Positions 3,239-18,441 of a stretch of DNA of 39,836 bases are shown here, piece by piece; positions within the stretch are counted from its first letter, which is position 1; each line of letters begins with the position of its first letter. The stretch comes from an uncultured bacterium. Lineage in GTDB: Bacteria; Patescibacteriota; Minisyncoccia; Phycocordibacterales; UBA5272. The notes under the pieces are model-generated. The model did no database searches. It worked only from the letters and a program-made list of their open reading frames with translations, and was not told the origin of the DNA. Where the stretch lies: positions 1-39,836 of the forward strand of contig CAIQWN010000037.1 of NCBI GenBank assembly GCA_903875555.1, given 5' to 3'. The translations under genes were made by a program, and so were the position numbers.

Positions 3239-3301
3239 GAGCTAAGTATATCAAAGTTCCGTAAAAAATGTCAAATGAATGTTGTTGCAAGTCTAAAAGT
3301 A

Positions 3302-3310
3302 TGCTATAAT
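3302..3310 (+). promoter_or_regulatory. Extended -10 box TGCTATAAT, 6 nt upstream of ATG 3317 (leaderless arrangement)
   Basis: Read directly from the sequence. The TGnTAnnnT-N6-ATG geometry recurs at 12 or more other genes in the window. Confidence 0.5.
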
Positions 3311-3316
3311 GGACAT

Positions 3317-5569: not shown

Positions 5570-5572
5570 TTT

Positions 5573-6844: not shown

Positions 6845-7134
6845 ATATTTATAACCCAGAATATAAATAACTCTATACATCATTATATTCTTTTGATACG
6901 TGTGTATAAATGGATTTCACATTTATGTCGTTCGGTCGCTAAGTATCATATAAGCTTCCTCACCTAGCCTTAACCCCTGTATAATAAGGATACGAGCTAG
7001 TTATATAAATATTGTATCACATTATTTAAAACTTTTTAATCTAGATAATTCTTCATTATATACAACATTAAAGACAGAAGACTTTTATGACTTACTTAAC
7101 AACTCTTTAAATGTTCTAGTTTTATTTTGCTTTT

Positions 7135-7356
7135 TCATTTTATATGTTTTTCAAATTCACTATATAGAACATCTATATCTCTGCAAATTTTTCCAACTGT
7201 TCCTGCCATAATTTCGTTATTACTATGTTTTGGCACAACAGTTATTTTTCCTGAAGCGTTCGCAAATATTATATGGCTTCCTTTTTACCTTTCTTTAAAA
7301 TAACCAAAATACTCTAACGCTTTAATAACTTGTTTATATTTTAGAGCCTTAGACAT
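7135..7356 (-). pseudogene. hicA: hicA-type toxin gene interrupted by an in-frame TAA (plus-strand 7285-7287)
   Basis: Manual translation gives MSKALKYKQVIKALEYFGYFKER*KGSHIIFANASGKITVVPKHSNNEIMAGTVGKICRDIDV.... The KGSH and VP.H...GT motifs are HicA hallmarks. The stop sits one residue before KGSH. The start overlaps the hicB stop by 8 nt. Confidence 0.75.
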
Positions 7357-7603
7357 ATTCTAAATTATATGGAAGCACTCCAAAAAATCTATTTTCACTC
7401 TTTACGATACTTAACAATTTCTTTTCTCCATAATATTCTTTTAACAAAGACATCACTTCATTTAAATTTTTTATAGCCTGTTCCAAAGTCATTCCGTCCG
7501 CGTGAGCTCCATTTATCCCAGGGATAGACACAACAAAACCCCCAGAAATATCTCTTTCCACCAAAATATTAGTTCCTAAAGTTTTTTTATTTCCTTTAAT
7601 CAT
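7349..7603 (-). CDS. hicB: HicB-family antitoxin (UPF0150-like)
   Basis: 84 aa. GGFVVSIPGINGAHADGMTLEQAIKNLNEVMSL is a HicB N-domain pattern. It is translationally coupled to the hicA remnant. TGGTATATT-N6-ATG lies upstream. Confidence 0.7.
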   Translation of the reverse strand: MIKGNKKTLGTNILVERDISGGFVVSIPGINGAHADGMTLEQAIKNLNEVMSLLKEYYGEKKLLSIVKSENRFFGVLPYNLEYV

Positions 7604-7636: not shown

Positions 7637-7674
7637 AGGTCGGTTCTTGCCTTGGACCCAGCAAGAACCGACCT
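7637..7674. repeat. GC-rich hairpin family, copy 1 (14-bp perfect stem, 10-nt loop CTTGGACCCA)
   Basis: AGGTCGGTTCTTGC-CTTGGACCCA-GCAAGAACCGACCT. Confidence 0.75.
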
Positions 7675-7729: not shown

Positions 7730-7834
7730 CTATATCTTCACCTCCGCACTCTGCTCCACAAGTTTCGTCGGAATCGCCACTGTAAAAGTAGATCCCTTTC
7801 CCCACTCTGACACTACAGAAATTTTTCCTTTGTT
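7730..7834 (-). pseudogene. Orphan histidine-kinase 3' end, copy a (last 34 codons plus stop)
   Basis: The reverse-strand translation NKGKISVVSEWGKGSTFTVAIPTKLVEQSAEVKI* aligns with the C-terminus of the HK at 10980-12632 (HKGKISVVSEWGKGSTFTVAVPTKL...). Confidence 0.8.
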
Positions 7835-7961
7835 CGTCGCATCTCAATGGACAGTACGTTCCCGATTTCTTAGATTGTAATCAATCTGTTGAAATTGCAA
7901 TGCTGTAAGTGCGACGCGAATTAGAAAATTCGTGGCTCGGCCATAAACTTTTGCAAAATCA
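7835..7961. repeat. Module M, copy 3: hairpin CGTCGCA...TGCGACG with a TCAATGGACA loop motif expanded by about 55 nt, plus the partial palindrome TTTTGCAAAATCA
   Basis: Alignment by eye to 9152-9196, which has the same orientation and the same abutment to an HK fragment. Confidence 0.55.
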
Positions 7962-7995
7962 ACCACTTCTTTACATATAAACTTTTTTACATCAA

Positions 7996-8004
7996 TGTTA
8001 TAAT
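7996..8004 (+). promoter_or_regulatory. Extended -10 TGTTATAAT, 6 nt upstream of ATG 8011
   Basis: Read directly from the sequence. Confidence 0.5.
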
Positions 8005-8010
8005 TTAAAT

Positions 8011-8619
8011 ATGATTATCGAAGTTGATGAATATAAAAAGAAAATACCAAACTACAACGCAGAAAAATCTGAAGATTTTCATCGTGAAAGTGCAAAACTT
8101 GCAGATAAAGATTTTATTAAACATCTTAAAACTAAAAAATATAAAAGAATTATTTTTATGGCTGGAGGCACAGCAAGTGGAAAGACTGAATATTCCACTT
8201 CATATTTAATAAACAAAGACCAGCTTGTTTATGACGGCACACTAAAAAACATAAATGGTTTTAATATAAAGTTAAAACACATAAACAAATATAGCAATGA
8301 AAGTAAAGTAAAAGTAGTTCTTATAATTCCGATTAATTTATCTACATCTTATAATGTGTTCCACGCGAGAGAAAGAAAAATGCGTGATGAAGTATTTTTT
8401 GAGACCCAAATTAAAAGCAAAGAAACTGTTGCTCAGATTTTGAGAGAAACAAAGATTAAAGTAGAAATATATTCTAGTGCATATGAAGAAAAAAAAGATA
8501 AACTATCTTTTAAAAGATTAACAGGCTCAAGAAATAGAAAAATGACAGCAAAACTTCTTGACTATCTCGCTAGTGAAATTAGAAATATTGCAAAAAGAAA
8601 CAACTTTACTATTAAGTAA
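8011..8619 (+). CDS. Zeta-toxin-family P-loop kinase-like protein
   Basis: 202 aa. Walker A is MAGGTASGKTE. HRESAKLADK lies upstream and DGTLKN downstream, in the same order as zeta/PezT family members. Confidence 0.6.
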   Translation: MIIEVDEYKKKIPNYNAEKSEDFHRESAKLADKDFIKHLKTKKYKRIIFMAGGTASGKTEYSTSYLINKDQLVYDGTLKNINGFNIKLKHINKYSNESKVKVVLIIPINLSTSYNVFHARERKMRDEVFFETQIKSKETVAQILRETKIKVEIYSSAYEEKKDKLSFKRLTGSRNRKMTAKLLDYLASEIRNIAKRNNFTIK

Positions 8620-8640
8620 AAAACAGTTAATATATAAATT

Positions 8641-8775
8641 ATGATAACAATACTCGGTGTTAAATTTCCAGTTTCTAAAAAAACCCTATATCCAAAAGAA
8701 ACAGAGGTTATTAGGTCATATATAGACGCAATCAAAAAAGGTAAAGGGAGTGCTGAAAGAAATCTTAAAATTTAA
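8641..8775 (+). CDS. Possible 44-aa ORF downstream of the zeta-like gene (MITILGVKFPVSKKTLYPKETEVIRSYIDAIKKGKGSAERNLKI)
   Basis: Manual translation. It starts 21 nt after the zeta-like stop and has no motif. Confidence 0.25.
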   Translation: MITILGVKFPVSKKTLYPKETEVIRSYIDAIKKGKGSAERNLKI

Positions 8776-8788
8776 TAAATTACAGTTA

Positions 8789-8853
8789 GGTCGTCAAATA
8801 AAATTTAAATCTGCAAGGTAAGACCTTGCAGAATTAAATTTTATTTGACGACC
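8789..8853. repeat. Long near-perfect palindrome (31-bp arms, one mismatch, 3-nt loop)
   Basis: GGTCGTCAAATAAAATTTAAATCTGCAAGGT-AAG-ACCTTGCAGAATTAAATTTTATTTGACGACC. The apex is a CTGCAAGG/CCTTGCAG unit that also occurs at 15065-15085 and in variant form at 16107-16125. Confidence 0.85.
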
Positions 8854-8945
8854 ACTCCCCGAATTAAAAAGTTAGAAATTGTTTAATCTATGAACGAGGT
8901 TTTAAATTTTAAATGTCTTGCGCAGTGTGACGACACGAGCAGAGC

Positions 8946-8989
8946 TGATTTTGCAAAATCACGTCGCACTGTGTCCATTAAAGTGCGAC
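8946..8989. repeat. Module M, copy 1: perfect 16-bp palindrome TGATTTTGCAAAATCA plus hairpin GTCGCACT-GTGTCCATTAA-AGTGCGAC
   Basis: Read directly from the sequence. It is inverted relative to copies 2 and 3. Confidence 0.65.
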
Positions 8990-9046
8990 CCAGCAGAAAA
9001 TTATGCGTGCATTTTAAATTTAAAACCGAGTGAACTTTTATGACTT

Positions 9047-9151
9047 TTACACTTTCACCTCCGCGCTCTGCTCCACCAACTTCGTCGGCACCGCCACCGT
9101 AAACGTAGACCCTTTTCCCCATTCTGAGACCACAGAAATTTTTCCTTTGTG
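9047..9151 (-). pseudogene. Orphan histidine-kinase 3' end, copy b (last 34 codons plus stop)
   Basis: The reverse-strand translation is HKGKISVVSEWGKGSTFTVAVPTKLVEQSAEVKV*. The roughly 60-nt core is nucleotide-identical to copy c. Confidence 0.8.
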
Positions 9152-9196
9152 CGTCGCGTTTCAATGGACATTACGCGACGTGATTTTGCAAAATCA
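9152..9196. repeat. Module M, copy 2: hairpin CGTCGCG-TTTCAATGGACATTA-CGCGACG plus the 16-bp palindrome TGATTTTGCAAAATCA
   Basis: Read directly from the sequence. It abuts HK fragment b. Confidence 0.65.
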
Positions 9197-9242
9197 ACCA
9201 CTTCTTCACATTCAGACTTTTTTACATCGCAGAATTAAATTT

Positions 9243-9974
9243 CTACCTAATATTATTTAATTCTTGATTACACTCAGCAGATACTCTTCCTTCTTTAAAA
9301 CAATTCAACACCTCGACTTTTTGTTCTGCATTAAAAATATTTTCTTTTAAATTAGTTGCACATCTTTGATAAATATAAAATCTTTTAAATAAATTAGAAT
9401 CCAATAATTCCGATAAAGTTTCTTCAATATTTCTGTAAGCTTCATCATGACTTTCTTTTTTTGTAAATCTTGCTGGGTATCCCAATCTTTTAAGTTCACT
9501 ATATCTGTAATCTAAACTTGCAAGAGATAATTCATAAGGTGTTGATATTGCAACAAGATTTATTTCGTAATCGTTATCTTTCAAATTCAAAGCGGTTTTC
9601 ATAGGAACTTCTTTTTTTCTCATTGTTCCTTCAACTATAAAATCTAAGCCCCTATTTATACATTCTTGAATTAACGATTCTACCCAGAAGTTACAAATAG
9701 CCTGTGTCATATCTGCTGCTTCTATATCATTCTCCTTTAAATAAAAATAATATTTAGGATGATAAGCCCTTAAATCATCTCCATTAATAAAAACAATATT
9801 TTTATTAATCTTTATTAATTCCCTAGCGAAAGCACTTTTACCACTACCAGGTTGACCACCTAAAATGAAGGCCTGTTTTATTTCTTGTGACAAAACACCA
9901 CTTGTCATCTGCGGAATTATCATTTCTTTAAAAATAGAAACTGCATCTTCTTGTGATATGTCAAAATTATTCAT
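9243..9974 (-). CDS. Zeta toxin family kinase (PezT/zeta-like)
   Basis: 243 aa. Walker A is ILGGQPGSGKSAF, with INGDDLR and VEGTMR motifs in the canonical order. Confidence 0.85.
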   Translation of the reverse strand: MNNFDISQEDAVSIFKEMIIPQMTSGVLSQEIKQAFILGGQPGSGKSAFARELIKINKNIVFINGDDLRAYHPKYYFYLKENDIEAADMTQAICNFWVESLIQECINRGLDFIVEGTMRKKEVPMKTALNLKDNDYEINLVAISTPYELSLASLDYRYSELKRLGYPARFTKKESHDEAYRNIEETLSELLDSNLFKRFYIYQRCATNLKENIFNAEQKVEVLNCFKEGRVSAECNQELNNIR

Positions 9975-10167
9975 ATTCTTTTAATTTTTTATCTATTACA
10001 CTTAATCTTTCCAAAAGAGAATTATATTCAAAAACATCTTCATAATAAACATTATGTCTTATAAATTGTAAATCATTGATCAAAATATTATCTTTAAAAT
10101 AAATAGCCTTACCTAAAAGAGTATTTATCATATTTAGTAATATTTCTATTTGTAAAACTTTATCCAT
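9967..10167 (-). CDS. Candidate epsilon-like antitoxin of the zeta toxin
   Basis: 66-aa helical ORF overlapping the zeta start by 8 nt, with TGGTATAGT-N6-ATG upstream. The assignment is by position only. Confidence 0.5.
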   Translation of the reverse strand: MDKVLQIEILLNMINTLLGKAIYFKDNILINDLQFIRHNVYYEDVFEYNSLLERLSVIDKKLKEYE

Positions 10168-10207
10168 AAATTTACTATACCATCAAAATATAAACTAGTC
10201 CATACTA

Positions 10208-10243
10208 GGTCGGTCCTTGCCTTGGACCCAGCAAGGACCGACC
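10208..10243. repeat. GC-rich hairpin family, copy 2 (13-bp stem, loop CTTGGACCCA)
   Basis: GGTCGGTCCTTGC-CTTGGACCCA-GCAAGGACCGACC. It lies 11 nt downstream (on the minus strand) of the stop of HK fragment c. Confidence 0.75.
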
Positions 10244-10254
10244 CCTCCACTCCA

Positions 10255-10464
10255 CTATTTTATTTTTCCTTCTTCCTTAATAAATACCTCCACATTCTCT
10301 TCCTTCAGTTTAGTTGGTACCGCCACCGTAAACGTAGACCCTTTTCCCCATTCTGAGACCACAGAAATTTTTCCTTTGTGTAATTCAACAACTTCTTTTA
10401 CGAAATACATACCAAGTCCGTTTCCAGAAATATTTGTTCCAACGCTTTCCTCTCTAGCGAACTT
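10255..10464 (-). pseudogene. Orphan histidine-kinase 3' end, copy c (last 69 codons plus stop, in frame, no internal lesions)
   Basis: The reverse-strand translation is KFAREESVGTNISGNGLGMYFVKEVVELHKGKISVVSEWGKGSTFTVAVPTKLKEENVEVFIKEEGKIK*. This is almost identical to the HK C-terminus, including the G2 box. There is no upstream coding continuation. Confidence 0.85.
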
Positions 10465-10530
10465 TTAATTTTCCTATTGCAAAAAAAAACTGTTGTGCTA
10501 TATTATATATATTAGGGCTTCGGCCTCCGA

Positions 10531-10554
10531 GAAAACCACCGCAAGGTGGTTTTC
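10531..10554 (-). terminator. Terminator hairpin downstream of the MazF-like gene
   Basis: The minus strand reads GAAAACCACC-TTGC-GGTGGTTTTC, with the T-run forming part of the 3' arm. Confidence 0.55.
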
Positions 10555-10564
10555 GATTCTTTAA

Positions 10565-10975
10565 CTAAATAAATTCTTTAATCTTATCTTTAATATTTTT
10601 AAAATCTCCTTTAGAAATATTTCCAACTTTTCTTAATAATCTTTTATTATCAATAACCTTAATTTGTGTTAACTTAACCCAAACTTTTTTATTCTTAATT
10701 TCATTATCTTTTTTTTCAAAAATATTTAACTCATAATGAAAATTATCGCTCTTCTTTTTGCTTGTAATAGGAACAACAAGCATAGATTCTTTATTGTATA
10801 CTTTCAATATCAAAACCGGCCTTTCAAAATTTTCATTCTTTCCATCAACTTCACTTCCTATATTAACCCCTAACGAACACCACCAAATTTCTCTTGGATA
10901 ACCAAAAACCAATCTCTCATTCCTGTTTATATTTTTCTTTTCGATATTCCATTTATCAAAATTCTTAATATGCAT
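10565..10975 (-). CDS. PemK/MazF-family toxin-like protein, solitary
   Basis: 136 aa. REIWWCSLGVNIGSEVDGKNENFERPVLILKVYNKESMLVVPITSKKK matches the long-form PemK/MazF pattern as I recall it. It starts 4 nt after the HK stop and has no antitoxin-sized ORF adjacent. Confidence 0.65.
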   Translation of the reverse strand: MHIKNFDKWNIEKKNINRNERLVFGYPREIWWCSLGVNIGSEVDGKNENFERPVLILKVYNKESMLVVPITSKKKSDNFHYELNIFEKKDNEIKNKKVWVKLTQIKVIDNKRLLRKVGNISKGDFKNIKDKIKEFI

Positions 10976-10979
10976 ATAT

Positions 10980-12632
10980 TTATTTTATCTTTCCCTCCTC
11001 CTTAATAAATACCTCCACATTCTCTTCCTTCAGTTTAGTTGGTACCGCCACCGTAAACGTAGACCCCTTTCCCCATTCTGAGACCACAGAGATTTTTCCT
11101 TTGTGAAGTTCCACAACCTCTTTTACGAAATACATACCCAGTCCGTTTCCAGAAATATTATTTACAACTTCTTCTTCTCGTGCGAACTTTTGATACAACT
11201 GTGTTTCGATAAATTTCTTTGACATTCCTCGCCCAGTGTCAGCAACATCCACCAAAATAAAGAATTCATTTCCATACAACTTTACTTTCACTCCGCCTTT
11301 CTCTGTATACTTAATCGAGTTATCAATCAAGTTCGCAAGCATATGGTCTAACTTCTCGTGGTCAAATACGATATCATAATTTAATCCTTCTTTGACTTCT
11401 AAATCAAGAGTAAGATTTTTCTTTTTTGCATTCGCTTCTTGTTCCGATACAATACTCTTCAATAACTCTTCAATATTATTTTTCTTAAACTCAACTTTTG
11501 TTTTCCCAGATTCGATACGAGAAATATCAAGAATAGAAGAAACGGTCTCGGCAAGAAGAACAGCATTATCATAAATTCTCCCCACTGGGTCATTCAACTT
11601 TTCTGGAAACTCACCATAAAGTCCCGTCTTAATCATCCCCACATAATTTCTAATAACCCCCGCCGGAGTTCGCAGTTGATGCGCCGCAATCGAAACGAAA
11701 TCATCCTTGTGTTTATCAAGTTCAATGAGTCTCGCATTAAGCCTAAACAATTCTTTATTCTTTCTTTTCATCTCATCATTAACCTGACTTTCTTTTTTAA
11801 CAGATTTAATCAAGAAAAAACCAAGTAAAATAGTTGTAATAAAAAATCCACCGTTTATAATATAATCTCTTTGATTTTCTGACAAAACAAATCTTGTAAA
11901 AAATAAAATAAACATTAAGAATGTCGCCATCTCTGTAGCAATAACCTTAACATTAAACAAGTTATATTTAAGTATCGCTCTAACAATAACTAAAGGAAAC
12001 AACGCAAACAAAATAATCGGGTAAGGTGGAAAATTTATATTAAAAGTTAAAAAGAAAACACTACCTCCACCAAGAAAACCAAAGGATGACGATATTAAAA
12101 TCTGTCTTAATTGTAAAGACTCTTTATGTCTGTCTAAATAAATAATTCTTTTGAATAAAATGAAGAGTGACAACATAGTCAGTAAAGCAAAATATAAAGC
12201 AAAAAATATGTATAAAGGACCTGCGTTTGGTGCATAATTAAAAACAAATTTATGAAAGACTCCTGTTACAAACAAAGAGCTATTAGCAATATAAACAAAG
12301 AATAAAGTTATTGGTGAAATAAAAAACCATATAATTTTTTTATAAACTAAATATGTTTTTGTTACATTTGAAATAAAAAGTAAAAAAAAGAAAGGTATAA
12401 AAGAAGCAGCGATATGAAGAACAACATTACTAATATAAGCAACATGTTCGGATACCGATATAATCATATACAAATATCCAAAACTCCATACAGAAGAACA
12501 GATATTTAATAATAGCCAACTAATACTTAAAATATTTTTTTTATTTGCCAAGAAAACAAACAGACCTGACAGAAAAGCAATAATTCCACCTAAAAAAAGA
12601 GCAACTGTATAATAATTTATAATCAATAACAT
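10980..12632 (-). CDS. Sensor histidine kinase with an N-terminal polytopic (about 7 TM) domain
   Basis: 550 aa. H-box SIAAHQLRTP, N-box NLIDNSIKYT, G1 DTGRGM, G2 GNGLGM. The N-terminal 270 aa are strongly hydrophobic. Confidence 0.9.
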   Translation of the reverse strand: MLLIINYYTVALFLGGIIAFLSGLFVFLANKKNILSISWLLLNICSSVWSFGYLYMIISVSEHVAYISNVVLHIAASFIPFFFLLFISNVTKTYLVYKKIIWFFISPITLFFVYIANSSLFVTGVFHKFVFNYAPNAGPLYIFFALYFALLTMLSLFILFKRIIYLDRHKESLQLRQILISSSFGFLGGGSVFFLTFNINFPPYPIILFALFPLVIVRAILKYNLFNVKVIATEMATFLMFILFFTRFVLSENQRDYIINGGFFITTILLGFFLIKSVKKESQVNDEMKRKNKELFRLNARLIELDKHKDDFVSIAAHQLRTPAGVIRNYVGMIKTGLYGEFPEKLNDPVGRIYDNAVLLAETVSSILDISRIESGKTKVEFKKNNIEELLKSIVSEQEANAKKKNLTLDLEVKEGLNYDIVFDHEKLDHMLANLIDNSIKYTEKGGVKVKLYGNEFFILVDVADTGRGMSKKFIETQLYQKFAREEEVVNNISGNGLGMYFVKEVVELHKGKISVVSEWGKGSTFTVAVPTKLKEENVEVFIKEEGKIK

Positions 12633-12634
12633 AA

Positions 12635-14278
12635 TTATTTATATAATCCAAGATATTTGTTTCCCAGCGAAGACATTTCCTTATTATTAATAAATAATAA
12701 AGCAAGATCGCTTATAGAATCAAAATTAATATTTGTCCCATGGTGCGGTTCTATATGTATATCTCCAATAAAATTTTTATTGGACTTAATAATTTCATTA
12801 AATAAATTTAGTTTTCCGTCTAGTGCATATATCGCTGACTGCGGAGAAGAACATGCAACGTGAGGATTATTAATTCCGTGAACAAACACACCCTCAGGTA
12901 TAAAACTTGGATTTATATATCCGTGCCAATGTGCTAAAGCAGATCCTTTTGTTGTTACTTTTTTAACATACTCCTTTTGTGTTTTTATATGATTAAAAAT
13001 AGAAGATAGAATAGCATTACCAACAGCGTGTGACAATATAACCTTTGTATCAAACGACGGTTTATAATCATCATCTAATATCAATCCGCTTGGCGCCTGT
13101 AAAAACATCTCTCCATTTTTTAAACCTATTTTTACTAAGTCTTTTTCTGGTTTTATATGTGTTTTATCTGAACCAGATCTCTGAGTCATAACCCAAACCT
13201 CTGGAACTTTCATATAAAAATTTTCTCCTTCTATTTCCACAATAATAAAAAGGTCTTCTCCAACATAAAACCAATCTCTATTAGAAACATCCAACCCTAA
13301 AATATTTTTTATATCAGTAACAGGAAATAATTCTGATATTTTTATTGGTATCTGCCATGCTAAAAACCCATAACTCATACCATTTCTATTATCTAAATGT
13401 AATTTACCTATCCATCTATAAAAATTATTTCTAAATGGTAAACTGTCTATTTTTTTTCCTTGTGGATACAATTGTGTCTGATCAAATAATTTACCACCTT
13501 CGACAAATTCTTTTATTATTTCTCTATAAGAAATGTCATTAATATTAAACTTATTATCCATAACAATAAATTCTGATAGTTTATATGGTCTTATAGGTGC
13601 AACAACCTTAGGAATAACAGCTTCTAATAAATGTTGTTTTAATTTACCATCATTTAAATTATATATGGGATGTGAGGCGTTAAAATTATACACAACAAAT
13701 TTTTCATCATCTACACCAATAACAATATTCGTCATGTGGTGAGCAAACATATCCATCGCTGTATTAAAATGTTCATGAAAATCGCTATCTCGTTTAATGT
13801 TTTTAGGAAAATCAAGAATTGTTATAACTGATGTATCTTTAAAACTCAAAGTGTTGTCCATAGGTAAATTTCCTATCTCGGACTCACCCAATGAAATTAT
13901 TGATATACCTGGTCTTACCCTATCCCTCTTAAATAGAGTATTTAAGAATACTTGAAATGTTACATAAAATAATTTTTCTTTATTTGTAAATAAATTATTA
14001 TATAAAACATAAAGATTTCGACCAAAAATTAAAAAACAGCGTTTTATTGCCTTATACACAGATATATGTTTTAAAGATTTTTCATAAGGTATAACATTAA
14101 CACCTAATTCTTTTAATTTTAATTCAACTTCTTTATAAAAACTTAAAACATTTAAACTTACTTCTGTCTCTTTAAAAGGAAACATAGTAACACTCATAAA
14201 CTTAGCCATATCATTATGACTAAGTGGAACTGTTTCTTTTATACCAATAATTTTATTTAATGCTTCTTGACTTAACAT
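12635..14278 (-). CDS. Uncharacterised 547-aa protein, co-transcribed with the kinase
   Basis: Long clean ORF whose stop is 2 nt from the HK start. No family was recognised. The C-terminal third is His-rich (SHAVGN, ALAHWHGY, HVACSSP, HIEPHHGTN). Confidence 0.7.
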   Translation of the reverse strand: MLSQEALNKIIGIKETVPLSHNDMAKFMSVTMFPFKETEVSLNVLSFYKEVELKLKELGVNVIPYEKSLKHISVYKAIKRCFLIFGRNLYVLYNNLFTNKEKLFYVTFQVFLNTLFKRDRVRPGISIISLGESEIGNLPMDNTLSFKDTSVITILDFPKNIKRDSDFHEHFNTAMDMFAHHMTNIVIGVDDEKFVVYNFNASHPIYNLNDGKLKQHLLEAVIPKVVAPIRPYKLSEFIVMDNKFNINDISYREIIKEFVEGGKLFDQTQLYPQGKKIDSLPFRNNFYRWIGKLHLDNRNGMSYGFLAWQIPIKISELFPVTDIKNILGLDVSNRDWFYVGEDLFIIVEIEGENFYMKVPEVWVMTQRSGSDKTHIKPEKDLVKIGLKNGEMFLQAPSGLILDDDYKPSFDTKVILSHAVGNAILSSIFNHIKTQKEYVKKVTTKGSALAHWHGYINPSFIPEGVFVHGINNPHVACSSPQSAIYALDGKLNLFNEIIKSNKNFIGDIHIEPHHGTNINFDSISDLALLFINNKEMSSLGNKYLGLYK

Positions 14279-14311
14279 ATTGTTAAGTATACAACATAAT
14301 TTCTAAAAAAA

Positions 14312-14956
14312 TTATAAATTATACACTACTTCCATAACTTTTATCGCATTCTTTTTAAATTCTCCTTTTTCTAAATCTTTTGGATATATCGGTTTACCAA
14401 AAATTACTTTGATTTTTCCTTTCCCAAAAAAGAATTTAAACAGTGTCATATCTTTCGTTCCTGAAATAAAAGTAGGCACAATAACACTTTCTGTTGCTTC
14501 AGCTAAATATCCCACTCCACCTTTTGCCTCTCTTAAAGTTCCATCTTTATTAATCTTTCCCTCTGGAAAAATACAAACAGACTTCCCTTTTCTTAAAAAG
14601 ATTAGATGGTACGGTAACGCAAAAGCATAGTCGTGATGTCCTGGGTATGCTGGATACGCCCCCCATAATCTAAAGAAAAAACCTCCGTAAAAAATTCTTT
14701 TCAGTACGGTGTTATTATAAAATTCTTTTTCTCGCGACACATAATACATTGGCCTTAACTCAGAAAAAAAAGGCACAGCACCAGTTACAACTATTGGGTC
14801 GAGTTCTCCAAAATGATTAGAAGCAAAAATTATTCCTCTACTTTTACTTTCCAAACCTTTTAGGTTTTTCAAACCTTTCACTTTAAAATCCACAAACAAA
14901 CCAAAAACAAACCTCATAAAAGGCCAAGAGATACTTTGTAATATAAAAGGAATCAT
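14312..14956 (-). CDS. plsC: 1-acyl-sn-glycerol-3-phosphate acyltransferase family protein (PlsC-like)
   Basis: 214 aa. The H(X)4D motif is in ASNHFGELD and FPEG in CIFPEGKINKDG. TGGTATTAT-N6-ATG lies upstream. Confidence 0.85.
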   Translation of the reverse strand: MIPFILQSISWPFMRFVFGLFVDFKVKGLKNLKGLESKSRGIIFASNHFGELDPIVVTGAVPFFSELRPMYYVSREKEFYNNTVLKRIFYGGFFFRLWGAYPAYPGHHDYAFALPYHLIFLRKGKSVCIFPEGKINKDGTLREAKGGVGYLAEATESVIVPTFISGTKDMTLFKFFFGKGKIKVIFGKPIYPKDLEKGEFKKNAIKVMEVVYNL

Positions 14957-15137
14957 TTAAATATAATACCACGAAAATAAATTTAATATTTGTGTCAACA
15001 AGTTTTACATATCATTTACAGGTCAGCTCTGTATGTCTAGTTCCTTCCTAGACATTTAATTTCTCTGCAAGGTCTTGCCTTGCAGAATTGTTTTTAAGAG
15101 GGTCGGTCATTGCTGGGCCCGTGGCAATGACCGACCC
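14957..15137. repeat. Unit A: plsC upstream region carrying three hairpins; duplicated at 15992-16206
   Basis: Shared with unit A': TATAATACCACGAAAATAAATTT, an ATGTCTAG...CTAGACAT hairpin, a CTGCAAGG-TCTTG-CCTTGCAG hairpin (present in variant form in A'), AATTGTTTTTAA, and a GC-rich hairpin. Confidence 0.65.
15100..15137. repeat. GC-rich hairpin family, copy 3 (14-bp stem, loop TGGGCCCGTG)
   Basis: GGGTCGGTCATTGC-TGGGCCCGTG-GCAATGACCGACCC. Confidence 0.75.
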
Positions 15138-15215
15138 ATAATTTTTACCAAACACAAACACCAAATTTAAATTTGACTTATTTTTTAATAAATATATAAT
15201 ATAAACATAACTACG

Positions 15216-15257
15216 AAAAAGACCCTTATGCGGGTAAGTCCGCATCGGGGGCTTTTT
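15216..15257 (-). terminator. Terminator downstream of the NYN gene
   Basis: The minus strand reads AAAAAGCCCCCGATGCGG-ACTTA-CCGCATAAGGGTCTTTTTC. The stem is imperfect and is followed by a T-run. Confidence 0.55.
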
Positions 15258-15261
15258 CATT

Positions 15262-15768
15262 TTAAATCATTATTTTCTCTAAAATATTTCTTTGATTTTT
15301 TAGATAAGAAATTTTTGCACCTGTTCGTTTCAGTAAAATAGAACACTTTTCTTCTGTCGATGGCGACAGTATTACTTTTAATTTATTTTTTTCTATCAAA
15401 AAATTTACTAATGAAGCATAATCTCCATCACTAGAAACAAGCAAAGCATTATCATATACGTTCTCATAAAAATCCTGAACTGTTTTAAGAACTAGATCAG
15501 CGTCACAGTTCCCCTTTGCTTTACCATTACCATCATAAACAACCTCTTTGAAGATAATTTTATAACCCGCTTCTTGTAAATGAGTATAAAGATTATTATA
15601 TTTTGGAATATTTCCTAAAAATATATACGCTTCGGTTACTGAATATTTTTCTGTAAGCCAAATACGAAATTTTTTATAATCTAGTTCCCACTTTAGATAA
15701 GTTATTACACCTTGATGAAGATTCGCTCCGTCTATAAAAGCATAATTATTTTCTTTAGTTTTATTCAT
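15262..15768 (-). CDS. NYN (LabA/DUF88-like) domain protein, predicted RNase fold
   Basis: 168 aa. YAFIDGANLHQG at the N-terminus and CDADL...LVSSDGDY match NYN/PIN-like acidic motifs. TGATATAAT-N6-ATG lies upstream. Confidence 0.75.
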   Translation of the reverse strand: MNKTKENNYAFIDGANLHQGVITYLKWELDYKKFRIWLTEKYSVTEAYIFLGNIPKYNNLYTHLQEAGYKIIFKEVVYDGNGKAKGNCDADLVLKTVQDFYENVYDNALLVSSDGDYASLVNFLIEKNKLKVILSPSTEEKCSILLKRTGAKISYLKNQRNILEKIMI

Positions 15769-15783
15769 ACAAATATTATATCA

Positions 15784-15991
15784 CCACATTTAAAAACACC
15801 TTTCTAATTTTTCTAAATTCCTCAAACCTTTAACTTTAAAATCAACAAACACCACTTCGCGATTACGCTTCGCGGTGCACGGCAAAGAAAAAAGGTTCGA
15901 GGAAGTGAAGAACAACGAAGATACAGCGAGTAGCAACGAGCGGTATACACAAAATGAAGAACAAACTCTGTGTCAGCCAATGAATTATCAT
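15784..15991 (-). pseudogene. Orphan plsC-type 5' end, copy B (own promoter and ATG, premature stop, frameshift)
   Basis: TGGTATTAT-N6-ATG is at 15991. The translation MIIHWLTQSLFFILCIPLVATRCIFVVLHFLEPFFFAVHREA* is followed, out of frame, by FVDFKVKGLRNLEKLER. Compare real PlsC: MIPFILQSIS...FVDFKVKGLKNLKGLES. Confidence 0.65.
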
Positions 15992-16206
15992 TTTATTATA
16001 ATACCACGAAAATAAATTTTCCGTTTCTGTCTAGGCCCTTCCTAGACATTATATTTTTTGTAAGGATTTTTCTGGCAAGGCAAGACCTTGCCATTCGCAA
16101 TCTTTGGCAAGGTCTTGCCTTGCAGAATTGTTTTTAAAAAAGAGAGGTCGGCCGATGAATCAATTAACAGGTCGGTCATTGCTGGACCCAAGGCAATGAC
16201 CGACCT
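15992..16206. repeat. Unit A': second copy of the plsC upstream region, with extra inserted hairpins
   Basis: Alignment by eye to 14957-15137. It also contains TGGCAAGG-CAAGA-CCTTGCCA and a partial GGTCGGCC. Confidence 0.65.
16169..16206. repeat. GC-rich hairpin family, copy 4 (14-bp stem, loop TGGACCCAAG)
   Basis: AGGTCGGTCATTGC-TGGACCCAAG-GCAATGACCGACCT. Confidence 0.75.
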
Positions 16207-16331
16207 CTATGTTTTTATTGTCCACACCGACATCTTGCTTTTTTATACAAAAAAATGTAGTGTATACATATGCCTGTGGGCGAAAGCCTTGTTCGGATAA
16301 GAGATCTCTAAGCCGAAGAACAGGCATAATT

Positions 16332-16359
16332 AAAAAAACATCTTTCGAGATGTTTTTTT
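16332..16359 (-). terminator. Bidirectional A/T-flanked terminator hairpin downstream of ORF 16363-16776
   Basis: AAAAAAACATCT-TTCG-AGATGTTTTTTT. Confidence 0.7.
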
Positions 16360-16362
16360 AAT

Positions 16363-16776
16363 TTATTTCTTCAATTTCATAATACTCCAAAAAATAATTT
16401 TACCATTACCTGTTCTCTTCAAAACAACCTTAACTTTTACATCTCTGTTTTTACCAACATTTGCAACAAGTGACCAAAATTCTACATCTTTTTGAACAGC
16501 TCCTTTCTTACGATTTTTTGGTTGCTTATCTTTTTTATACTCATCTATTTTTTCAGCACATTTCAATACTGGCACAGCAAGTGGTATTAATTTTAATTTA
16601 AAAATTCTTTCCTTAAGCAACCTCGCTGTTCCTCCACCATCATATTCCATATGATGAAAGCCTTGTGCATTAAAAACTACTTCTGAATTTAAACAAGGAC
16701 AATACACACCACCTATCTTGTCATATATTTCCCGTGCATTATTTTTAAAAAAATCCAAATCGTCTTTTTCACTCAT
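16363..16776 (-). CDS. Hypothetical 137-aa protein (cassette gene)
   Basis: Clean ORF with TGATATAAT-N6-ATG upstream and its own terminator. No family was recognised. The C-terminal half is Lys-rich. Confidence 0.55.
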   Translation of the reverse strand: MSEKDDLDFFKNNAREIYDKIGGVYCPCLNSEVVFNAQGFHHMEYDGGGTARLLKERIFKLKLIPLAVPVLKCAEKIDEYKKDKQPKNRKKGAVQKDVEFWSLVANVGKNRDVKVKVVLKRTGNGKIIFWSIMKLKK

Positions 16777-16788
16777 AAAATAATTATA

Positions 16789-16865
16789 TCACCACATTTA
16801 AAAACCCATTTCCAATTTTTCTAAATTTCTCAAGCATTTAACTTTAAAATAAAGACAAATCTTTT
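16789..16865 (-). pseudogene. Orphan plsC-type 5' fragment, copy B' (decayed)
   Basis: The minus strand reads TTTATTTTAAAGTTAAATGCTTGAGAAATTTAGAAAAATTGGAAATGGGTTTTTAAATGTGGTGATATAAT. This is near-identical to the junction of copy B and contains in-frame stops. Confidence 0.55.
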
Positions 16866-16938
16866 TGACTCCTCGACTCAAAAATATAAAAGATTACTTT
16901 TATATTTCACTCATCTTACGTCGCCAATCAACAAACAA

Positions 16939-17877
16939 TTATTTAACAGACTCAATAAGTAAACTCATCAACTCTTTCATTTCATATCCACAAACTTTTG
17001 CTTGCTGTGGAATAAACGAAGTCTTTGTCATACCAGGAACAGTGTTTATTTCAAGTACATATAATTTATCATCTCTTAAGATCATATCTGTTCGTGAAAT
17101 TGATCTACATCCCAAAACCTTATGACACCGTACTACTGTTTCTTTTATTCTATTCATTAAATCATTACCTACTTCTGCTGGTGTAACTTCTATACAACCA
17201 CCTTGTGTATATTTTGCTTCATAATCAAAAAGTTCACCTTTTGTTAAAACAACCTCAGAGGCAACAAGTGGTGTCGCAACGTTATTTATCTCAATAACCC
17301 CACAAGTAAACTCCCTACCTTTCACAAATTCCTGTGCGAGTAATTCATTATGATTTTCAAAAATTTTATTTAAAGAATTTTTATATTCTTCTTCATTGTT
17401 TAATTTAAACAAATCAACAGACGACCCTTCATCAACTGGCTTAACAATAATTGGAAAATTAAACGGCACAGAAAAATCATTTTTATTTATAATTTTACTT
17501 TGCGGAATGTTTATTTCGTTTTCTTGTAAAACTTTATTAGTTTTATTTTTATCAATAGTCAGTCTTGAAACTTCTGATGAATGTCCGACAAACTTTATCC
17601 CTGCTTTTTCTAATTTTTCTTGAAGCTCTCCATCTTCACCGTATTCTCCGTGAATAATTGGAAAAACAACATCTATATTTATATTTTTAATTTCATTTAT
17701 TCCGTCTTCTTCGTTAAAAATTTCTTCACCAATCTTATATTTTTTATTTTTATCGACAAAAATTTCTAAAACATCAAATTTTTCTCGATCTATATTTTCT
17801 AAAATATTTTTCGCAGAAGAAACAGACACTTCATGCTCACTTCCTGGGCCTCCATAAATTATCGCAACTTTTTTCAT
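16939..17877 (-). CDS. ddl: D-alanine--D-alanine ligase
   Basis: 312 aa. The N-terminus is KVAIIYGGPGSEHEVSVSSAKNI, with an ATP-grasp body and the C-terminal motif LEINTVPGMT. Confidence 0.9.
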   Translation of the reverse strand: MKKVAIIYGGPGSEHEVSVSSAKNILENIDREKFDVLEIFVDKNKKYKIGEEIFNEEDGINEIKNINIDVVFPIIHGEYGEDGELQEKLEKAGIKFVGHSSEVSRLTIDKNKTNKVLQENEINIPQSKIINKNDFSVPFNFPIIVKPVDEGSSVDLFKLNNEEEYKNSLNKIFENHNELLAQEFVKGREFTCGVIEINNVATPLVASEVVLTKGELFDYEAKYTQGGCIEVTPAEVGNDLMNRIKETVVRCHKVLGCRSISRTDMILRDDKLYVLEINTVPGMTKTSFIPQQAKVCGYEMKELMSLLIESVK

Positions 17878-18227
17878 TTTAATTTTGTAAATTTAATTTC
17901 TGTAAAATCTTTATGTTGCTTATCGGTGTCACCTTTTTCATCTTTTATACAACTTGTTCCCCTGCATAAATCTGGTCTATTTTCATAATCTAAACATTTT
18001 CCTGTGTTTTTATCATAATTTATACAATCAAAAGTAGCAACTCTAACTTTTTCCTCCATACCTTCTGGCGAAATTATTTCATCTCTTTCTTTCCATAAAT
18101 CACCACCGTTTTTATCTTTTGGTAATTCCAAACCATTGACAATTGCTCTTTGATTAATTTTTACAGGATTACAACAAAAACTACAATTCTTATCTTCGCA
18201 CGGAGCATGTTTATTAAAACTTTCCAT
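17874..18227 (-). CDS. YkgJ-family cysteine-cluster (CxxCxxCC-type) protein
   Basis: C-rich motifs CEDKNCSFCCNP and CINYDKNTGKCLDYENRPDLCR. The track start at 18233 is a GTG. ATG 18227 sits exactly 6 nt below TGATATAAT and is preferred. There is a 4-nt overlap with ddl. Confidence 0.7.
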   Translation of the reverse strand: MESFNKHAPCEDKNCSFCCNPVKINQRAIVNGLELPKDKNGGDLWKERDEIISPEGMEEKVRVATFDCINYDKNTGKCLDYENRPDLCRGTSCIKDEKGDTDKQHKDFTEIKFTKLK

Positions 18228-18242
18228 AAACACATTATATCA

Positions 18243-18410
18243 CTTCTCCAGCCTATAAACCCTTTCACTTTGAAATCAACAAATAAAAAGAAGAGAGGTT
18301 CGAGAAAGCGATGAGCTCGACGAAGCGAAGAACGAGGAAGATATCCGAAGTTGGCAAACTGAGGATACGAAGAGAATGTTTGGAGTAGCAATGATCGGTA
18401 TAAAAAAATA
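18243..18410 (-). pseudogene. Orphan plsC-type 5' fragment, copy B'' (lacks the start; truncated by the RND terminator)
   Basis: The minus-strand frame reads ...RFLEPLFFLFVDFKVKGF. TATACCGATCATTGCTACT matches TATACCGCTCGTTGCTACT of copy B. Confidence 0.55.
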
Positions 18411-18441
18411 AAAAAACTGCCCCAAAAAATCATGGGGCAGC
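18411..18441 (-). terminator. Rho-independent terminator overlapping the RND gene stop
   Basis: The minus strand reads CTGCCCC-ATGATTTTTT-GGGGCAG followed by TTTTTTTATTTTTTT. Confidence 0.7.

What the first reader, a model, noticed from the sequence alone, without database searches (positions are those of the whole stretch)
7730..18410. The plsC-like / 547-aa / histidine-kinase operon is bracketed by opposed arrays of its own orphaned gene ends (nested layout)
The minus-strand operon 14956->10980 has intergenic gaps of 33 and 2 nt.

- Downstream of the kinase stop lie three more same-orientation copies of the kinase C-terminal coding end: 10255-10464 (69 codons plus stop, in frame, no lesions), 9047-9151 and 7730-7834 (34 codons plus stop each).
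- Upstream of the plsC-like start lie three more same-orientation copies of a plsC-type 5' end: 15784-15991 (with its own promoter and ATG), 16789-16865 and 18243-18410. They are recognisable by the FVDFKVKG codons.
- All 5' orphans are on the 5' side and all 3' orphans are on the 3' side. In-place decay of tandem paralogues would instead interleave 5' and 3' ends.

The pattern looks like repeated insertion of a fresh central unit into an older copy, or serial cassette capture at both ends. Every interval between orphans holds an accessory module (hicBA, zeta-like, epsilon/zeta, MazF-like, NYN, 137-aa ORF). No integrase or transposase is recognisable in the window. I know of no described system with this geometry.
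Basis: partly seen in the sequence, partly recalled or inferred. Interest (0 to 1): 0.85.

Follow-up and report, generated by a model that had tools for sequence, protein, structure and literature searches.

The report
Gene-edge repeats flanking cassette arrays
A conserved three-gene operon of a tiny Parcubacteria (CPR) bacterium is flanked on both sides by stacks of small accessory-gene cassettes, each separated by a leftover copy of the operon's own first or last few dozen codons, and the same layout recurs in distant relatives without any integrase, pointing to a recombination-driven way of adding genes at the edges of conserved operons.

Summary
Self-BLASTN confirms three extra copies of the kinase 3' end downstream of the operon and three copies of the plsC 5' end upstream, all in the operon's orientation.

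The operon (plsC-like, 547-aa protein, 7TM histidine kinase) is a core Parcubacteria operon. In about 100 non-redundant related loci, the same "orphan edge plus cassette" pattern recurs in at least six independent lineages. It sits at the kinase 3' end (L014, L040, L067, L070), at the 5' end of whichever gene comes first (L016, L067), and once at the neighbouring dnaJ 3' end (L049). None of the roughly 40 cassette proteins scanned against Pfam is a recombinase.

Several results bear on mechanism:
- Two near-identical strains (L067, L120) differ by a cassette block swapped exactly between two repeat units.
- Repeat copies are mosaics.
- Their differences from the resident gene are mostly synonymous.

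The best reading is two independent additive cassette arrays, built by insertion-duplication (Campbell-type or unequal homologous recombination) anchored on the operon edges. A trans-acting site-specific recombinase is not excluded.

The geometry matches known tandem accretion at gene ends, so this is a new variant of a known kind.

The parts
14312..14956 (-). Resident plsC-like acyltransferase, first gene of the operon. Its first ~46 codons plus upstream region form the 5' repeat unit.
   Evidence: Pfam PF01553, E 5e-14. Orthologues lie upstream of the 547-aa gene in most relatives.
12635..14278 (-). 547-aa conserved Parcubacteria protein of unknown function.
   Evidence: 384 homologues at about 50% identity with no Pfam hit. 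AF2 model pLDDT 88.6. No meaningful PDB fold match.
10980..12632 (-). Resident 7TM histidine kinase, last gene of the operon. 10981-11194 is the resident copy of the 3' repeat.
   Evidence: Pfam HisKA_7TM, HisKA and HATPase_c. Repeat coordinates.
10565..10975 (-). Cassette 3'-1: solo MazF/PemK-like toxin gene, 4 nt after the kinase stop codon.
   Evidence: Pfam PF02452, E 1e-18. The same adjacency is seen in sister lineage L132. The 70% homologue P0123 sits in an unrelated context.
10255..10469 (-). 3' orphan 1: last 69 codons plus stop of a kinase allele.
   Evidence: 90.7% over 214 nt to the resident end. It is a mosaic: the left 89 nt are 18% diverged and the right 115 nt are 3.5% diverged. 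pN/pS is 0.14.
10208..10243 (.). 36-nt GC-rich palindrome (GGTCGGTC..GACCGACC) immediately after orphan 1.
   Evidence: Four copies, found only inside the arrays, with chance expectation 0.6 half-sites. Absent from 63 related loci.
9243..10167 (-). Cassette 3'-2: epsilon-like 66-aa ORF plus zeta toxin.
   Evidence: Pfam Zeta_toxin, E 5e-38. 78-82% nt identity to the L001 cassette, which lies upstream of plsC there.
9047..9228 (-). 3' orphan 2: 34 codons plus stop (9047-9151), preceded by a ~80-90-nt non-kinase element shared with orphan 3. That element holds the palindrome TGATTTTGCAAAATCA and a hairpin.
   Evidence: Inverted copy of the element at 8946-8992 (I1).
8789..8853 (.). 65-nt near-perfect palindrome between orphan 2 and the zeta-like gene.
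   Evidence: (I6).
8011..8619 (+). Cassette 3'-3: zeta-like P-loop protein on the opposite strand.
   Evidence: Pfam Zeta_toxin, E 2e-6.
7730..7993 (-). 3' orphan 3: 34 codons plus stop (7730-7834), with the same non-kinase element interrupted by ~80 nt.
   Evidence: 81% identity to the resident end.
7638..7673 (.). GC-rich palindrome after orphan 3.
7130..7603 (-). hicB (7349-7603) and a hicA pseudogene with an in-frame stop, beyond the outermost 3' orphan.
   Evidence: Weak Pfam HicB_lk_antitox hit below the gathering score. Translation.
14957..15146 (-). Resident upstream unit: palindrome 15101-15136, hairpins 15033-15097 and the promoter-like region. It is repeated ahead of 5' orphan 1.
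   Evidence: (D4, D6, D8).
15262..15768 (-). Cassette 5'-1: NYN-domain protein.
   Evidence: Pfam PF01936, E 5e-15.
15784..16215 (-). 5' orphan 1: palindrome and hairpins, promoter, ATG at 15991 and a frameshifted plsC stub ending in FVDFKVKGLRNLEKLE and TGATATAAT.
   Evidence: The N-terminus MIIHWLTQSLFFIL resembles the L001 plsC allele.
16363..16776 (-). Cassette 5'-2: 137-aa ORF.
   Evidence: Weak LPD3 hit below the gathering score.
16789..16865 (-). 5' orphan 2: stub only, with the same right-hand junction as orphan 1.
   Evidence: 86% over 87 nt to orphan 1, reaching the cassette ATG.
16939..18233 (-). Cassette 5'-3: D-Ala-D-Ala ligase plus a CxxCxxCC protein.
   Evidence: Pfam.
18243..18410 (-). 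5' orphan 3: stub without promoter or ATG. It starts directly after the MMPL terminator and ends in TGATATAAT.
   Evidence: 23-mer with 1 mismatch. It shares the extended segment TATACCGMTCRTTGCTACTC with orphan 1.

Best explanation
Two independent additive cassette arrays have grown at the two edges of a conserved core operon by insertion-duplication.

Proposed mechanism:
1. DNA from related strains arrives carrying an alternative flank (a cassette) still attached to a piece of the operon's edge. The piece is either promoter plus first codons, or last codons plus stop.
2. It recombines with the resident operon edge. This happens by a single Campbell-type crossover of a circular molecule, or by unequal or interchromatid homologous recombination of a linear [edge-cassette-edge] fragment.
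3. The operon stays intact. The displaced or extra edge copy is left on the far side of the new cassette.
4. Repeating this stacks cassettes, with all 5' stubs upstream and all 3' stubs downstream.
5. Once stubs exist they act as portable homology, so cassettes can be added, swapped or lost by ordinary RecA-type recombination. No cassette-encoded recombinase is needed.

On the 5' side, each stub keeps a promoter or -10-like element that reads into the cassette behind it.

Shown:
- the repeats and their recurrence in other lineages;
- the strain-level cassette swap at repeat units;
- the mosaic repeat copies;
- the absence of recombinase genes among the cassette proteins scanned.

Inferred:
- the circular or unequal-crossover intermediates;
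- dependence on host homologous recombination;
- natural transformation as the entry route.
For: 1. Repeats confirmed.
2. Recurrence in independent lineages at about 50% protein identity:
   - L014/L069: kinase 3' end, 233 nt at 94%.
   - L040/L090: 64 nt.
   - L067: 157 nt at the 3' end, plus four extra copies of the 547-gene promoter and 5' end.
   - L016: three 5' stubs of the 547 gene.
   - L070: 167 nt at 100% around a 5.5-kb insert.
   - L049/L100: dnaJ 3' end, 356 nt around a 6-kb insert.
3. The 5' stub always comes from whichever gene is first in the local operon. That is plsC in the window and the 547-aa gene in L016 and L067. This fits "edge of the homology block" rather than one recognition sequence.
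4. The stub boundary inside the gene varies between independent events: kinase codon 482 or 510 in the window, and other positions in L014, L040, L067 and L070. In the two youngest-looking events the other boundary lies at the stop codon (window orphan 1) or 6 nt after it (L070).
5. No recombinase among the cassette proteins of the window, L016, L049, L067 and L070 scanned with Pfam.
6. Strains L067 and L120 are 99.6-99.9% identical in the flanks. They differ by a cassette block bounded exactly by two repeat units.
7. Repeat copies are mosaics:
   - Longest identical run 68 of 214 nt (P = 0.007) in the window.
   - Longest identical run 164 of 356 nt (P < 1e-4) in L049.
   - The left and right parts of orphan 1 differ five-fold in divergence.
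   - A 62-nt exact block is shared by orphans 1 and 2.
8. pN/pS of stub versus resident is 0.14-0.27. Most divergence therefore arose between functional alleles.
9. The same epsilon/zeta cassette lies on opposite sides of the operon in the window and in L001.
10. Identity to the resident end falls with distance (91%, 85%, 81%), as expected if the newest cassette is nearest the gene.
11. Transformation-driven interchromatid recombination producing duplications has been demonstrated in S. pneumoniae (PMC3784515).
Against: - No circular or excised intermediate was observed.
- How the first duplication arises in each lineage is unexplained.
- Within one array the stubs share identical truncation points and an extra non-gene element: ~90 nt in the window's 3' array, 110 nt in L016, 140 nt in L067. 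That element could equally be a recognition site for a trans-acting recombinase.
- Homologous recombination between segments only 81-91% identical and 60-230 nt long is inefficient in model bacteria.
- Orphan 1 is near-identical to the resident end in its right half. A simple single crossover with an 18%-diverged donor does not predict this without later gene conversion.
- The low pN/pS can also be explained by later allelic replacement of the resident gene.
- Only about 10 kb on each side of one operon was surveyed. The roughly 15-20-fold enrichment at this operon's edges rests on a small within-locus comparison.
- The 36-nt GC-rich palindromes occur only inside the arrays and are unexplained.
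Confidence: 0.5

Rival explanations
1. Integrase-mediated tandem accretion. Small satellite-like cassettes are integrated and excised by a site-specific (tyrosine, serine or Xer-type) recombinase encoded elsewhere in the genome. The att sites lie in the operon edges, or in the extra common element next to each stub. This would resemble integron cassettes, cis-mobilisable elements or degenerate islands.
For: - Within an array, stubs share exact truncation points and an adjacent conserved non-gene element. That element contains a perfect 16-nt palindrome plus a hairpin in the window, and equivalents exist in L016 and L067.
- All three 5' stubs in the window end at the same TGATATAAT junction.
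- GC-rich palindromes are confined to the arrays.
- The geometry equals that of known integrase-driven serial integration (10.1101/2020.12.28.424599).
- A phage-like block (TerL, TerS, repressor) lies at the window's left end, so an integrase could lie just outside the window.
Against: - No recombinase in the 39.8-kb window or in the cassette proteins scanned in four other loci.
- The repeated sequence differs between lineages: promoter only, first 13 codons of the 547 gene, ~46 codons of plsC, the kinase 3' end, or the dnaJ 3' end.
- The stub boundary varies between independent events.
- No short motif is common to all junctions.
- The palindromes are absent from all other loci that show the phenomenon.
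Confidence: 0.25
2. Nested replacement. A complete fresh operon with its own flanking cassettes is repeatedly inserted into the resident copy. Each event leaves one 5' stub and one 3' stub.
For: - Equal numbers (3 and 3) of stubs in the window.
- L067 also has stubs on both sides.
- Palindromes sit outside both ends of successive layers.
Against: - Unequal counts elsewhere: L016 has 3 and 0; L014, L040 and L070 have 0 and 1.
- L049 shows the same process at dnaJ alone.
- The L067/L120 difference is a single cassette swap on one side, with the operon 99.7% identical.
- No mechanism is known that would delete the middle of the resident operon each time.
Confidence: 0.07
3. Replicative template switching, or insertion with a long target duplication. 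A fork or polymerase stalls at the operon edge (terminator or promoter hairpins). It copies foreign DNA and then resumes upstream of where it left. The result is an insert flanked by a 60-350-nt duplication made in situ.
For: - The L070 direct repeat is 100% identical over 167 nt around a 5.5-kb insert.
- One boundary lies at or within 6 nt of the stop codon in the two youngest-looking events, while the other boundary varies.
- Strong hairpins lie next to the operon edges.
Against: - Older stubs differ from the resident gene mainly at synonymous sites (pN/pS 0.14-0.27). Orphans 2 and 3 also encode a different C-terminal tail allele. This needs an extra assumption of later allelic replacement.
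- It does not explain array units that include non-gene elements.
- It does not explain the cassette swap between strains.
Confidence: 0.1
4. Artefact or ordinary decay. Either a metagenome assembler chained flanks from different strains, or tandem kinase and plsC paralogues decayed in place.
For: - Some relatives do have tandem full-length kinase paralogues (L007, L070, L075).
- Short-read contigs L126 and L127 end inside a 62-nt exact repeat, so the arrays are hard to assemble.
Against: - Every stub has a unique non-homologous junction that must exist in reads.
- The mazF-stub junction is identical in two independent assemblies.
- The same architectures are recovered in diverged strains from different samples (L040/L090 at 96.8% identity; L067/L120).
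- Stubs 2 and 3 share a truncation point and a non-kinase flank.
- No remnant of the kinase body lies between the stubs; the intervals hold intact unrelated genes.
Confidence: 0.04

Closest known systems
Tandem accretion of integrative elements at gene ends. Examples: Prochlorococcus tycheposon islands with partial tRNAs; SGI1 at the trmE 3' end. From my own knowledge: SCC elements at the rlmH 3' end and islands in the dusA 5' end.
   Same: - The incoming DNA restores the target gene and displaces the old gene end.
- Serial events push older units outward.
- Displaced 3' fragments accumulate downstream, and displaced 5' fragments (with a replacement promoter) accumulate upstream.
- Cargo is accessory, defence and toxin-antitoxin genes. 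(10.1101/2020.12.28.424599; PMC8409611.)
   Different: - No integrase was found in any cassette scanned or anywhere in the window.
- Cassettes are only 0.7-1.4 kb in the window.
- Both edges of one operon are used.
- The repeated sequence and its boundary differ between lineages, so no single att core is evident.
Integron cassette arrays and CALINs
   Same: - Unidirectional arrays of small, mostly promoterless single-gene or two-gene cassettes rich in toxin-antitoxin modules.
- A repeat separates each cassette.
- The newest cassette is probably nearest the fixed platform.
   Different: - No IntI.
- The separators are copies of a housekeeping gene's edge (60-350 nt), not attC hairpins.
- Arrays lie on both sides.
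- On the 5' side, each cassette gets its own promoter copy instead of sharing one Pc promoter.
Campbell-type insertion-duplication and transformation-triggered merodiploidy
   Same: - Direct repeats equal to the shared homology flank the insert.
- Repeat copies are hybrids.
- Only host recombination functions are needed. Interchromatid integration of a partly repeated donor fragment creates duplications (PMC3784515).
   Different: - Those cases are known from laboratory constructs and large IS-bounded duplications.
- They have not been described as a natural, recurrent route that stacks foreign cassettes at operon edges.
pdif (XerC/D) modules of Acinetobacter plasmids (my own knowledge, not checked in a paper here)
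   Same: Small modules, often toxin-antitoxin, that lack their own recombinase and are thought to move using host recombinases.
   Different: Those modules are bounded by 28-bp dif-like sites in alternating orientation. No such short common site was found here.

Membership tests
Integron / CALIN | IntI tyrosine recombinase next to the array | tested here: not met
   No Phage_integrase hit among the 40 window ORFs scanned. CALINs lack IntI by definition, so this alone is not decisive.
Integron / CALIN | Each cassette ends in an attC site: an imperfect inverted repeat with R''/L''...L'/R' boxes (GTTRRRY) | tested here: inconclusive
   The separators are kinase or plsC edge copies. The GC-rich palindromes (GGTCGGTC...) lack the GTTRRRY boxes and occur at only 4 of about 8 boundaries. 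No attC covariance model was available to run.
Integrase-driven genomic islands targeting a gene end | Direct repeats made of the target gene's end flank the insert, and the gene is reconstituted | tested here: met
   The resident kinase and plsC are full length.
Integrase-driven genomic islands targeting a gene end | An integrase gene at one end of the element, at least in some copies | tested here: not met
   None among the cassette proteins scanned in the window, L016, L049, L067 and L070. Cassettes of L014, L040 and L120 were seen only as ORF lists and were not scanned with Pfam.
Integrase-driven genomic islands targeting a gene end | A fixed crossover core shared by all events at that target | tested here: not met
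   Boundaries differ between independent events, and the target is whichever gene is first or last in the operon. Within one array the boundaries are shared.
Campbell-type / unequal homologous insertion-duplication | Repeat length equals the shared homology, and repeat copies are hybrids or mosaics | tested here: met
   Non-uniform mismatch distribution (P = 0.007 in the window; P < 1e-4 in L049). Three-part mosaic of orphan 1.
Campbell-type / unequal homologous insertion-duplication | Circular [repeat + cassette] or unequal-crossover intermediates, and RecA dependence | not testable with these tools
   This needs read-level or experimental data.
Tandem paralogue decay | Remnants of the whole gene in place, with 5' and 3' remnants interleaved | tested here: not met
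   tblastn finds only end fragments. Stubs 2 and 3 share a truncation point and a foreign flank.
Xer/dif modules | 28-bp dif-like sites at every module boundary | tested here: not met
   Repeat searches found no short motif common to all boundaries. No dedicated dif model was run.

The most novel reading that the evidence does not exclude
Parcubacteria, and perhaps CPR bacteria generally, have an integrase-independent cassette system. The edges of conserved operons act as the attachment sites, and stub-plus-promoter units act as portable recombination and expression modules. In these minimal genomes, accessory, defence and even housekeeping genes (Ddl, TyrRS, PheA) would be gained, stacked and exchanged by host homologous recombination alone. 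This would be a functional analogue of the integron that needs no dedicated enzyme.
Probability: 0.3. Interest if true: 0.75.

Novelty: new variant of a known kind. Interest (0 to 1): 0.55.

Why it matters
CPR bacteria have tiny genomes and few recognisable mobile elements, yet they show strain-level gene-content variation.

A recurrent, recombinase-free way of stacking cassettes at the edges of a conserved operon would explain how they acquire toxin-antitoxin, defence and metabolic genes. The cassettes seen include MazF, zeta, HicBA and NYN, with Thoeris next door.

The displaced gene ends are also dated "fossils" of earlier alleles. They give a built-in record of the order of acquisitions and of allelic replacement in uncultured organisms.

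There is a practical point too. These 60-350-nt repeats break short-read assemblies (L126 and L127 stop inside them). Such islands are therefore probably under-represented in MAGs.

Tried and rejected
1. The 547-aa protein as a hidden recombinase. The AF2 model is confident (pLDDT 88.6), but Foldseek against the PDB gave only a weak partial aldolase-like match (TM 0.23). No support.
2. The GC-rich palindrome as a general cassette boundary. It is absent from the 63 related loci then in hand, so it is specific to this lineage.
3. Close strain variants of the window.
   - The exact 547-aa protein is not on record.
   - A single-protein metagenome scan found nothing.
   - Only two 2.4-kb contigs share the kinase-mazF segment.
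4. Viral contigs carrying the kinase end or the zeta cassette as a possible attP-bearing element: none.
5. Rfam on the whole window: no hits.
6. Nested central-unit model: rejected on unequal stub counts in other lineages.
7. In-place decay and assembly chimera: rejected (see the rival explanations).
8. Using pN/pS to prove that the stub or the resident end was imported. The values are low (0.14-0.27), but later allelic replacement of the resident gene gives the same signal. It shows only that the divergence is allelic, not when or how it entered.
9. Literature search for a prior description in Patescibacteria. PMC12455944 reports islands predicted by IslandViewer but nothing on gene-edge repeats.

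Full report
**Observation**

The minus-strand operon consists of a plsC-like acyltransferase (14312-14956), a 547-aa protein (12635-14278) and a 7TM histidine kinase (10980-12632). The intergenic gaps are 33 and 2 nt.

Self-BLASTN confirms the 3' copies:
- The last 214 nt of the kinase recur at 10256-10469 (90.7%, E 6e-81).
- The last ~95-105 nt recur at 9057-9151 (85%) and 7740-7833 (81%).
- tblastn shows all three in frame and ending in a stop codon.

On the other side, the plsC upstream region and first codons recur at 15784-16031 and 16789-16865.
- Matching segments are 94% over 33 nt, 93% over 30 nt, and 86% over 87 nt between the two orphans.
- The core 23-mer TTTGTTGATTTTAAAGTGAAAGG occurs with at most 1 mismatch at 14874, 15827 and 18261. 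Chance expectation is 0.01.

All copies share the operon's orientation. The intervals hold:
- MazF/PemK;
- epsilon-like plus zeta;
- a zeta-like protein;
- HicB with a hicA pseudogene;
- NYN;
- a 137-aa ORF;
- Ddl plus a CxxCxxCC protein.

No recombinase hit was found among the 40 window ORFs scanned with Pfam. Two independent assemblies are 100% identical to window 12710-10319 and so contain the mazF-to-orphan junction.

**Context**

The 547-aa protein has hundreds of Parcubacteria homologues at about 50% identity and no Pfam domain. In relatives the 547-aa gene and the 7TM kinase are always adjacent, usually preceded by plsC and set among housekeeping genes. This is a core operon, not a mobile one.

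The closest relative, L001 (79% protein identity), has the orthologous M10 peptidase next to an epsilon/zeta cassette and then plsC. That cassette is 78-82% identical in DNA to the window's epsilon/zeta. In the window, however, it lies downstream of the kinase.

**Generality**

I fetched 58 genome loci and 62 metagenome loci around 547-aa homologues and self-compared each. The same pattern recurs in lineages only about 50% identical in protein:

| Locus | Repeat | Cassette or insert |
|---|---|---|
| L014/L069 | kinase 3' end, 233 nt, 94% | two-gene cassette |
| L040/L090 | kinase 3' end, 64 nt | two-gene cassette |
| L067 | kinase 3' end, 157 nt, 87%; plus four extra copies of the 547-gene promoter and 5' end | several cassettes |
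| L016 | three copies of the promoter plus first 13 codons of the 547 gene | hicBA, small ORFs, an RNHCP/radical-SAM block |
| L070 | 167 nt, 100% identical, at the 3' end of a second 7TM kinase | 5.5-kb insert |
| L049/L100 | dnaJ 3' end, 356 nt, 92% | 6 kb of metabolic genes immediately upstream of plsC |

A few similar events occur at other genes (L010, L012). Events at this operon's edges are roughly 15-20 times more frequent per gene end within the surveyed loci. That figure is my rough count.

None of the cassette proteins scanned with Pfam is a recombinase.

**What the details say**

1. The 5' stub always comes from whichever gene is first in the local operon. The 3' stub comes from the last kinase. 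The position is therefore the edge of the conserved block, not one recognition sequence.
2. Between independent events the inner boundary varies. The outer boundary lies at the stop codon in window orphan 1 and 6 nt after it in L070, the two youngest-looking events.
3. Within one array the stubs share a truncation point and an extra non-gene element.
   - In the window's 3' array this is ~90 nt, with the palindrome TGATTTTGCAAAATCA and a hairpin.
   - In L016 it is 110 nt, and in L067 it is 140 nt.
   - Arrays therefore grow by re-using an existing unit.
4. All three 5' stubs in the window end in TGATATAAT just before the cassette's start codon. Orphan 1 also keeps the plsC promoter. Cassettes are thus placed behind promoter-like sequence.
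5. Strains L067 and L120 are 99.6-99.9% identical on both sides. They carry different cassette blocks exactly between two repeat units.
6. Repeat copies are mosaics.
   - The longest identical run is 68 of 214 nt in the window (P = 0.007) and 164 of 356 nt in L049 (P < 1e-4).
   - The left 89 nt of orphan 1 are 18% diverged from the resident end, about as far as the sister lineage L132. Its right 115 nt are only 3.5% diverged.
   - Orphans 1 and 2 share a 62-nt exact block.
7. Differences between stubs and resident ends are mostly synonymous: pN/pS is 0.14-0.27 in the window and 0.15 in L014. The divergence is therefore between functional alleles. Either the incoming DNA brought a foreign edge, or the resident gene was later replaced by an allele.
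8. Identity to the resident end falls with distance (91%, 85%, 81%).

**Mechanism**

The most economical reading is additive insertion-duplication anchored on operon-edge homology. A cassette still attached to a piece of the operon's edge recombines with the resident edge. This occurs either as a circle by a single crossover, or as a linear [edge-cassette-edge] fragment by unequal or interchromatid recombination, as demonstrated for transformation in S. pneumoniae (PMC3784515).

The operon is preserved and the spare edge copy ends up beyond the cassette. Repetition gives all 5' stubs upstream and all 3' stubs downstream. The steps involving circles, RecA and DNA uptake are inferred.

A trans-acting site-specific recombinase that recognises the shared non-gene elements or the palindromes remains a serious rival (about 0.25). 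The window's left end is a phage-like block of TerL, TerS, a ParB-methylase and an S24 repressor. An integrase could lie just outside the window.

The nested "fresh central unit" model predicts equal stub counts. L016 (3 and 0) and L014, L040 and L070 (0 and 1) contradict it.

Template switching with an in-situ duplication fits L070's 100% repeat. It needs extra assumptions for the older stubs.

Assembly artefact and paralogue decay are unlikely. The junctions are unique, the architectures are reproduced across samples and strains, and the shared truncated units argue against independent decay.

**The 547-aa protein**

I tested whether it could be the missing enzyme. The AF2 model is confident (pLDDT 88.6), but it has no meaningful PDB fold match. 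Its function stays unknown, and there is no evidence linking it to recombination.

**Comparison with known systems**

The geometry is that of serial integration at a gene end.
- Prochlorococcus islands show newly arriving elements pushing older ones outward, separated by partial tRNAs (10.1101/2020.12.28.424599).
- SGI1 targets the trmE 3' end (PMC8409611).
- From my own knowledge, SCC elements target the rlmH 3' end. Islands in the dusA 5' end replace the 5' end and promoter.

This case differs in several ways:
- it lacks any integrase;
- its cassettes are integron-sized;
- it uses both edges of one operon;
- its sites vary between lineages.

It resembles integrons in array logic and toxin-antitoxin-rich cargo. 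It has no IntI, and its separators are gene-edge copies, not attC sites.

I therefore rate it a new variant of a known kind, of moderate interest. Interest would be higher if the integrase-free, homology-anchored mechanism proves general in CPR bacteria.

Noticed in passing
window 1-3958: Phage- or satellite-like block. A TerL-like ORF (Walker A RGSGKST) runs off the left end on the minus strand. It is followed by a terS-like gene (992-1399), a ParB-N/DNA methylase (1386-2660) and an S24 LexA/CI-like repressor (3221-3958). An integrase could lie just outside the window.
   Followed up: partly
window 4215-6115: Thoeris-type defence genes: ThsB-TIR, ThsA-Macro, ThsB-TIR. A lone response regulator follows at 6431-6805, just beyond the 3' array.
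   Followed up: partly
window 7638-7673, 10208-10243, 15101-15136, 16170-16205: Four copies of a 36-nt GC-rich perfect palindrome (GGTCGGTYNTTGC...GCAANRACCGACC) in a 30% GC genome. They occur only inside the two arrays: after 3' orphans 1 and 3, and ahead of the plsC promoter copies. They are absent from 63 related loci. REP-like element, terminator or protein-binding site: undecided.
   Followed up: partly
window 8946-8992 and 9150-9196: 3' orphan 2 is bracketed by inverted copies of a 47-nt element (83% complementary). The element contains the perfect palindrome TGATTTTGCAAAATCA and a CGTCGCG...CGCGACG hairpin. Its role is unknown.
   Followed up: no
window ~7130-7354 (-): The hicA toxin gene downstream of hicB has an in-frame stop after codon 24, so it is probably a pseudogene.
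   Followed up: partly
window 10565-10975; L132 1289-1453: A MazF/PemK-like toxin gene with no recognisable antitoxin starts 4 nt after the kinase stop codon. The same arrangement is present in the sister lineage (kinase 80% identical). The coupling therefore pre-dates their split or was transferred together.
   Followed up: partly
window 18430-20736: The MMPL-family transporter gene has 40% GC against ~30% around it. It is missing between the M10 peptidase and plsC in relative L001. Its terminator abuts the truncated outermost 5' orphan, suggesting a later insertion that removed that orphan's promoter and start.
   Followed up: partly
window 12635-14278: The 547-aa protein is conserved across Parcubacteria and always lies next to a 7TM histidine kinase. 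It has many invariant His, Asp and Cys residues, no Pfam domain, a confident AF2 model and no PDB fold match. It is an uncharacterised core CPR protein.
   Followed up: partly
window 16939-17877; L049 6609-8768: Housekeeping-type genes sit inside cassettes bounded by gene-edge repeats: Ddl in the window, and TyrRS and prephenate dehydratase in L049. The arrays are therefore not limited to defence or toxin-antitoxin cargo.
   Followed up: no
L042 6760-9970: A 159-nt promoter-region unit precedes both plsC and the 547-aa gene. Three copies of a 32-nt palindrome lie between them. plsC itself may be a cassette in that lineage.
   Followed up: no
L067 400-480: A ~65-nt hairpin-forming insert interrupts one copy of the promoter repeat and is flanked by a duplicated GTTGA. 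This looks like a MITE-like insertion.
   Followed up: no
window 27722-28066: Gene for a 23S rRNA intervening-sequence protein (PF05635), lying within a glycosyltransferase and O-antigen-ligase-rich region at 25.3-39.8 kb.
   Followed up: no
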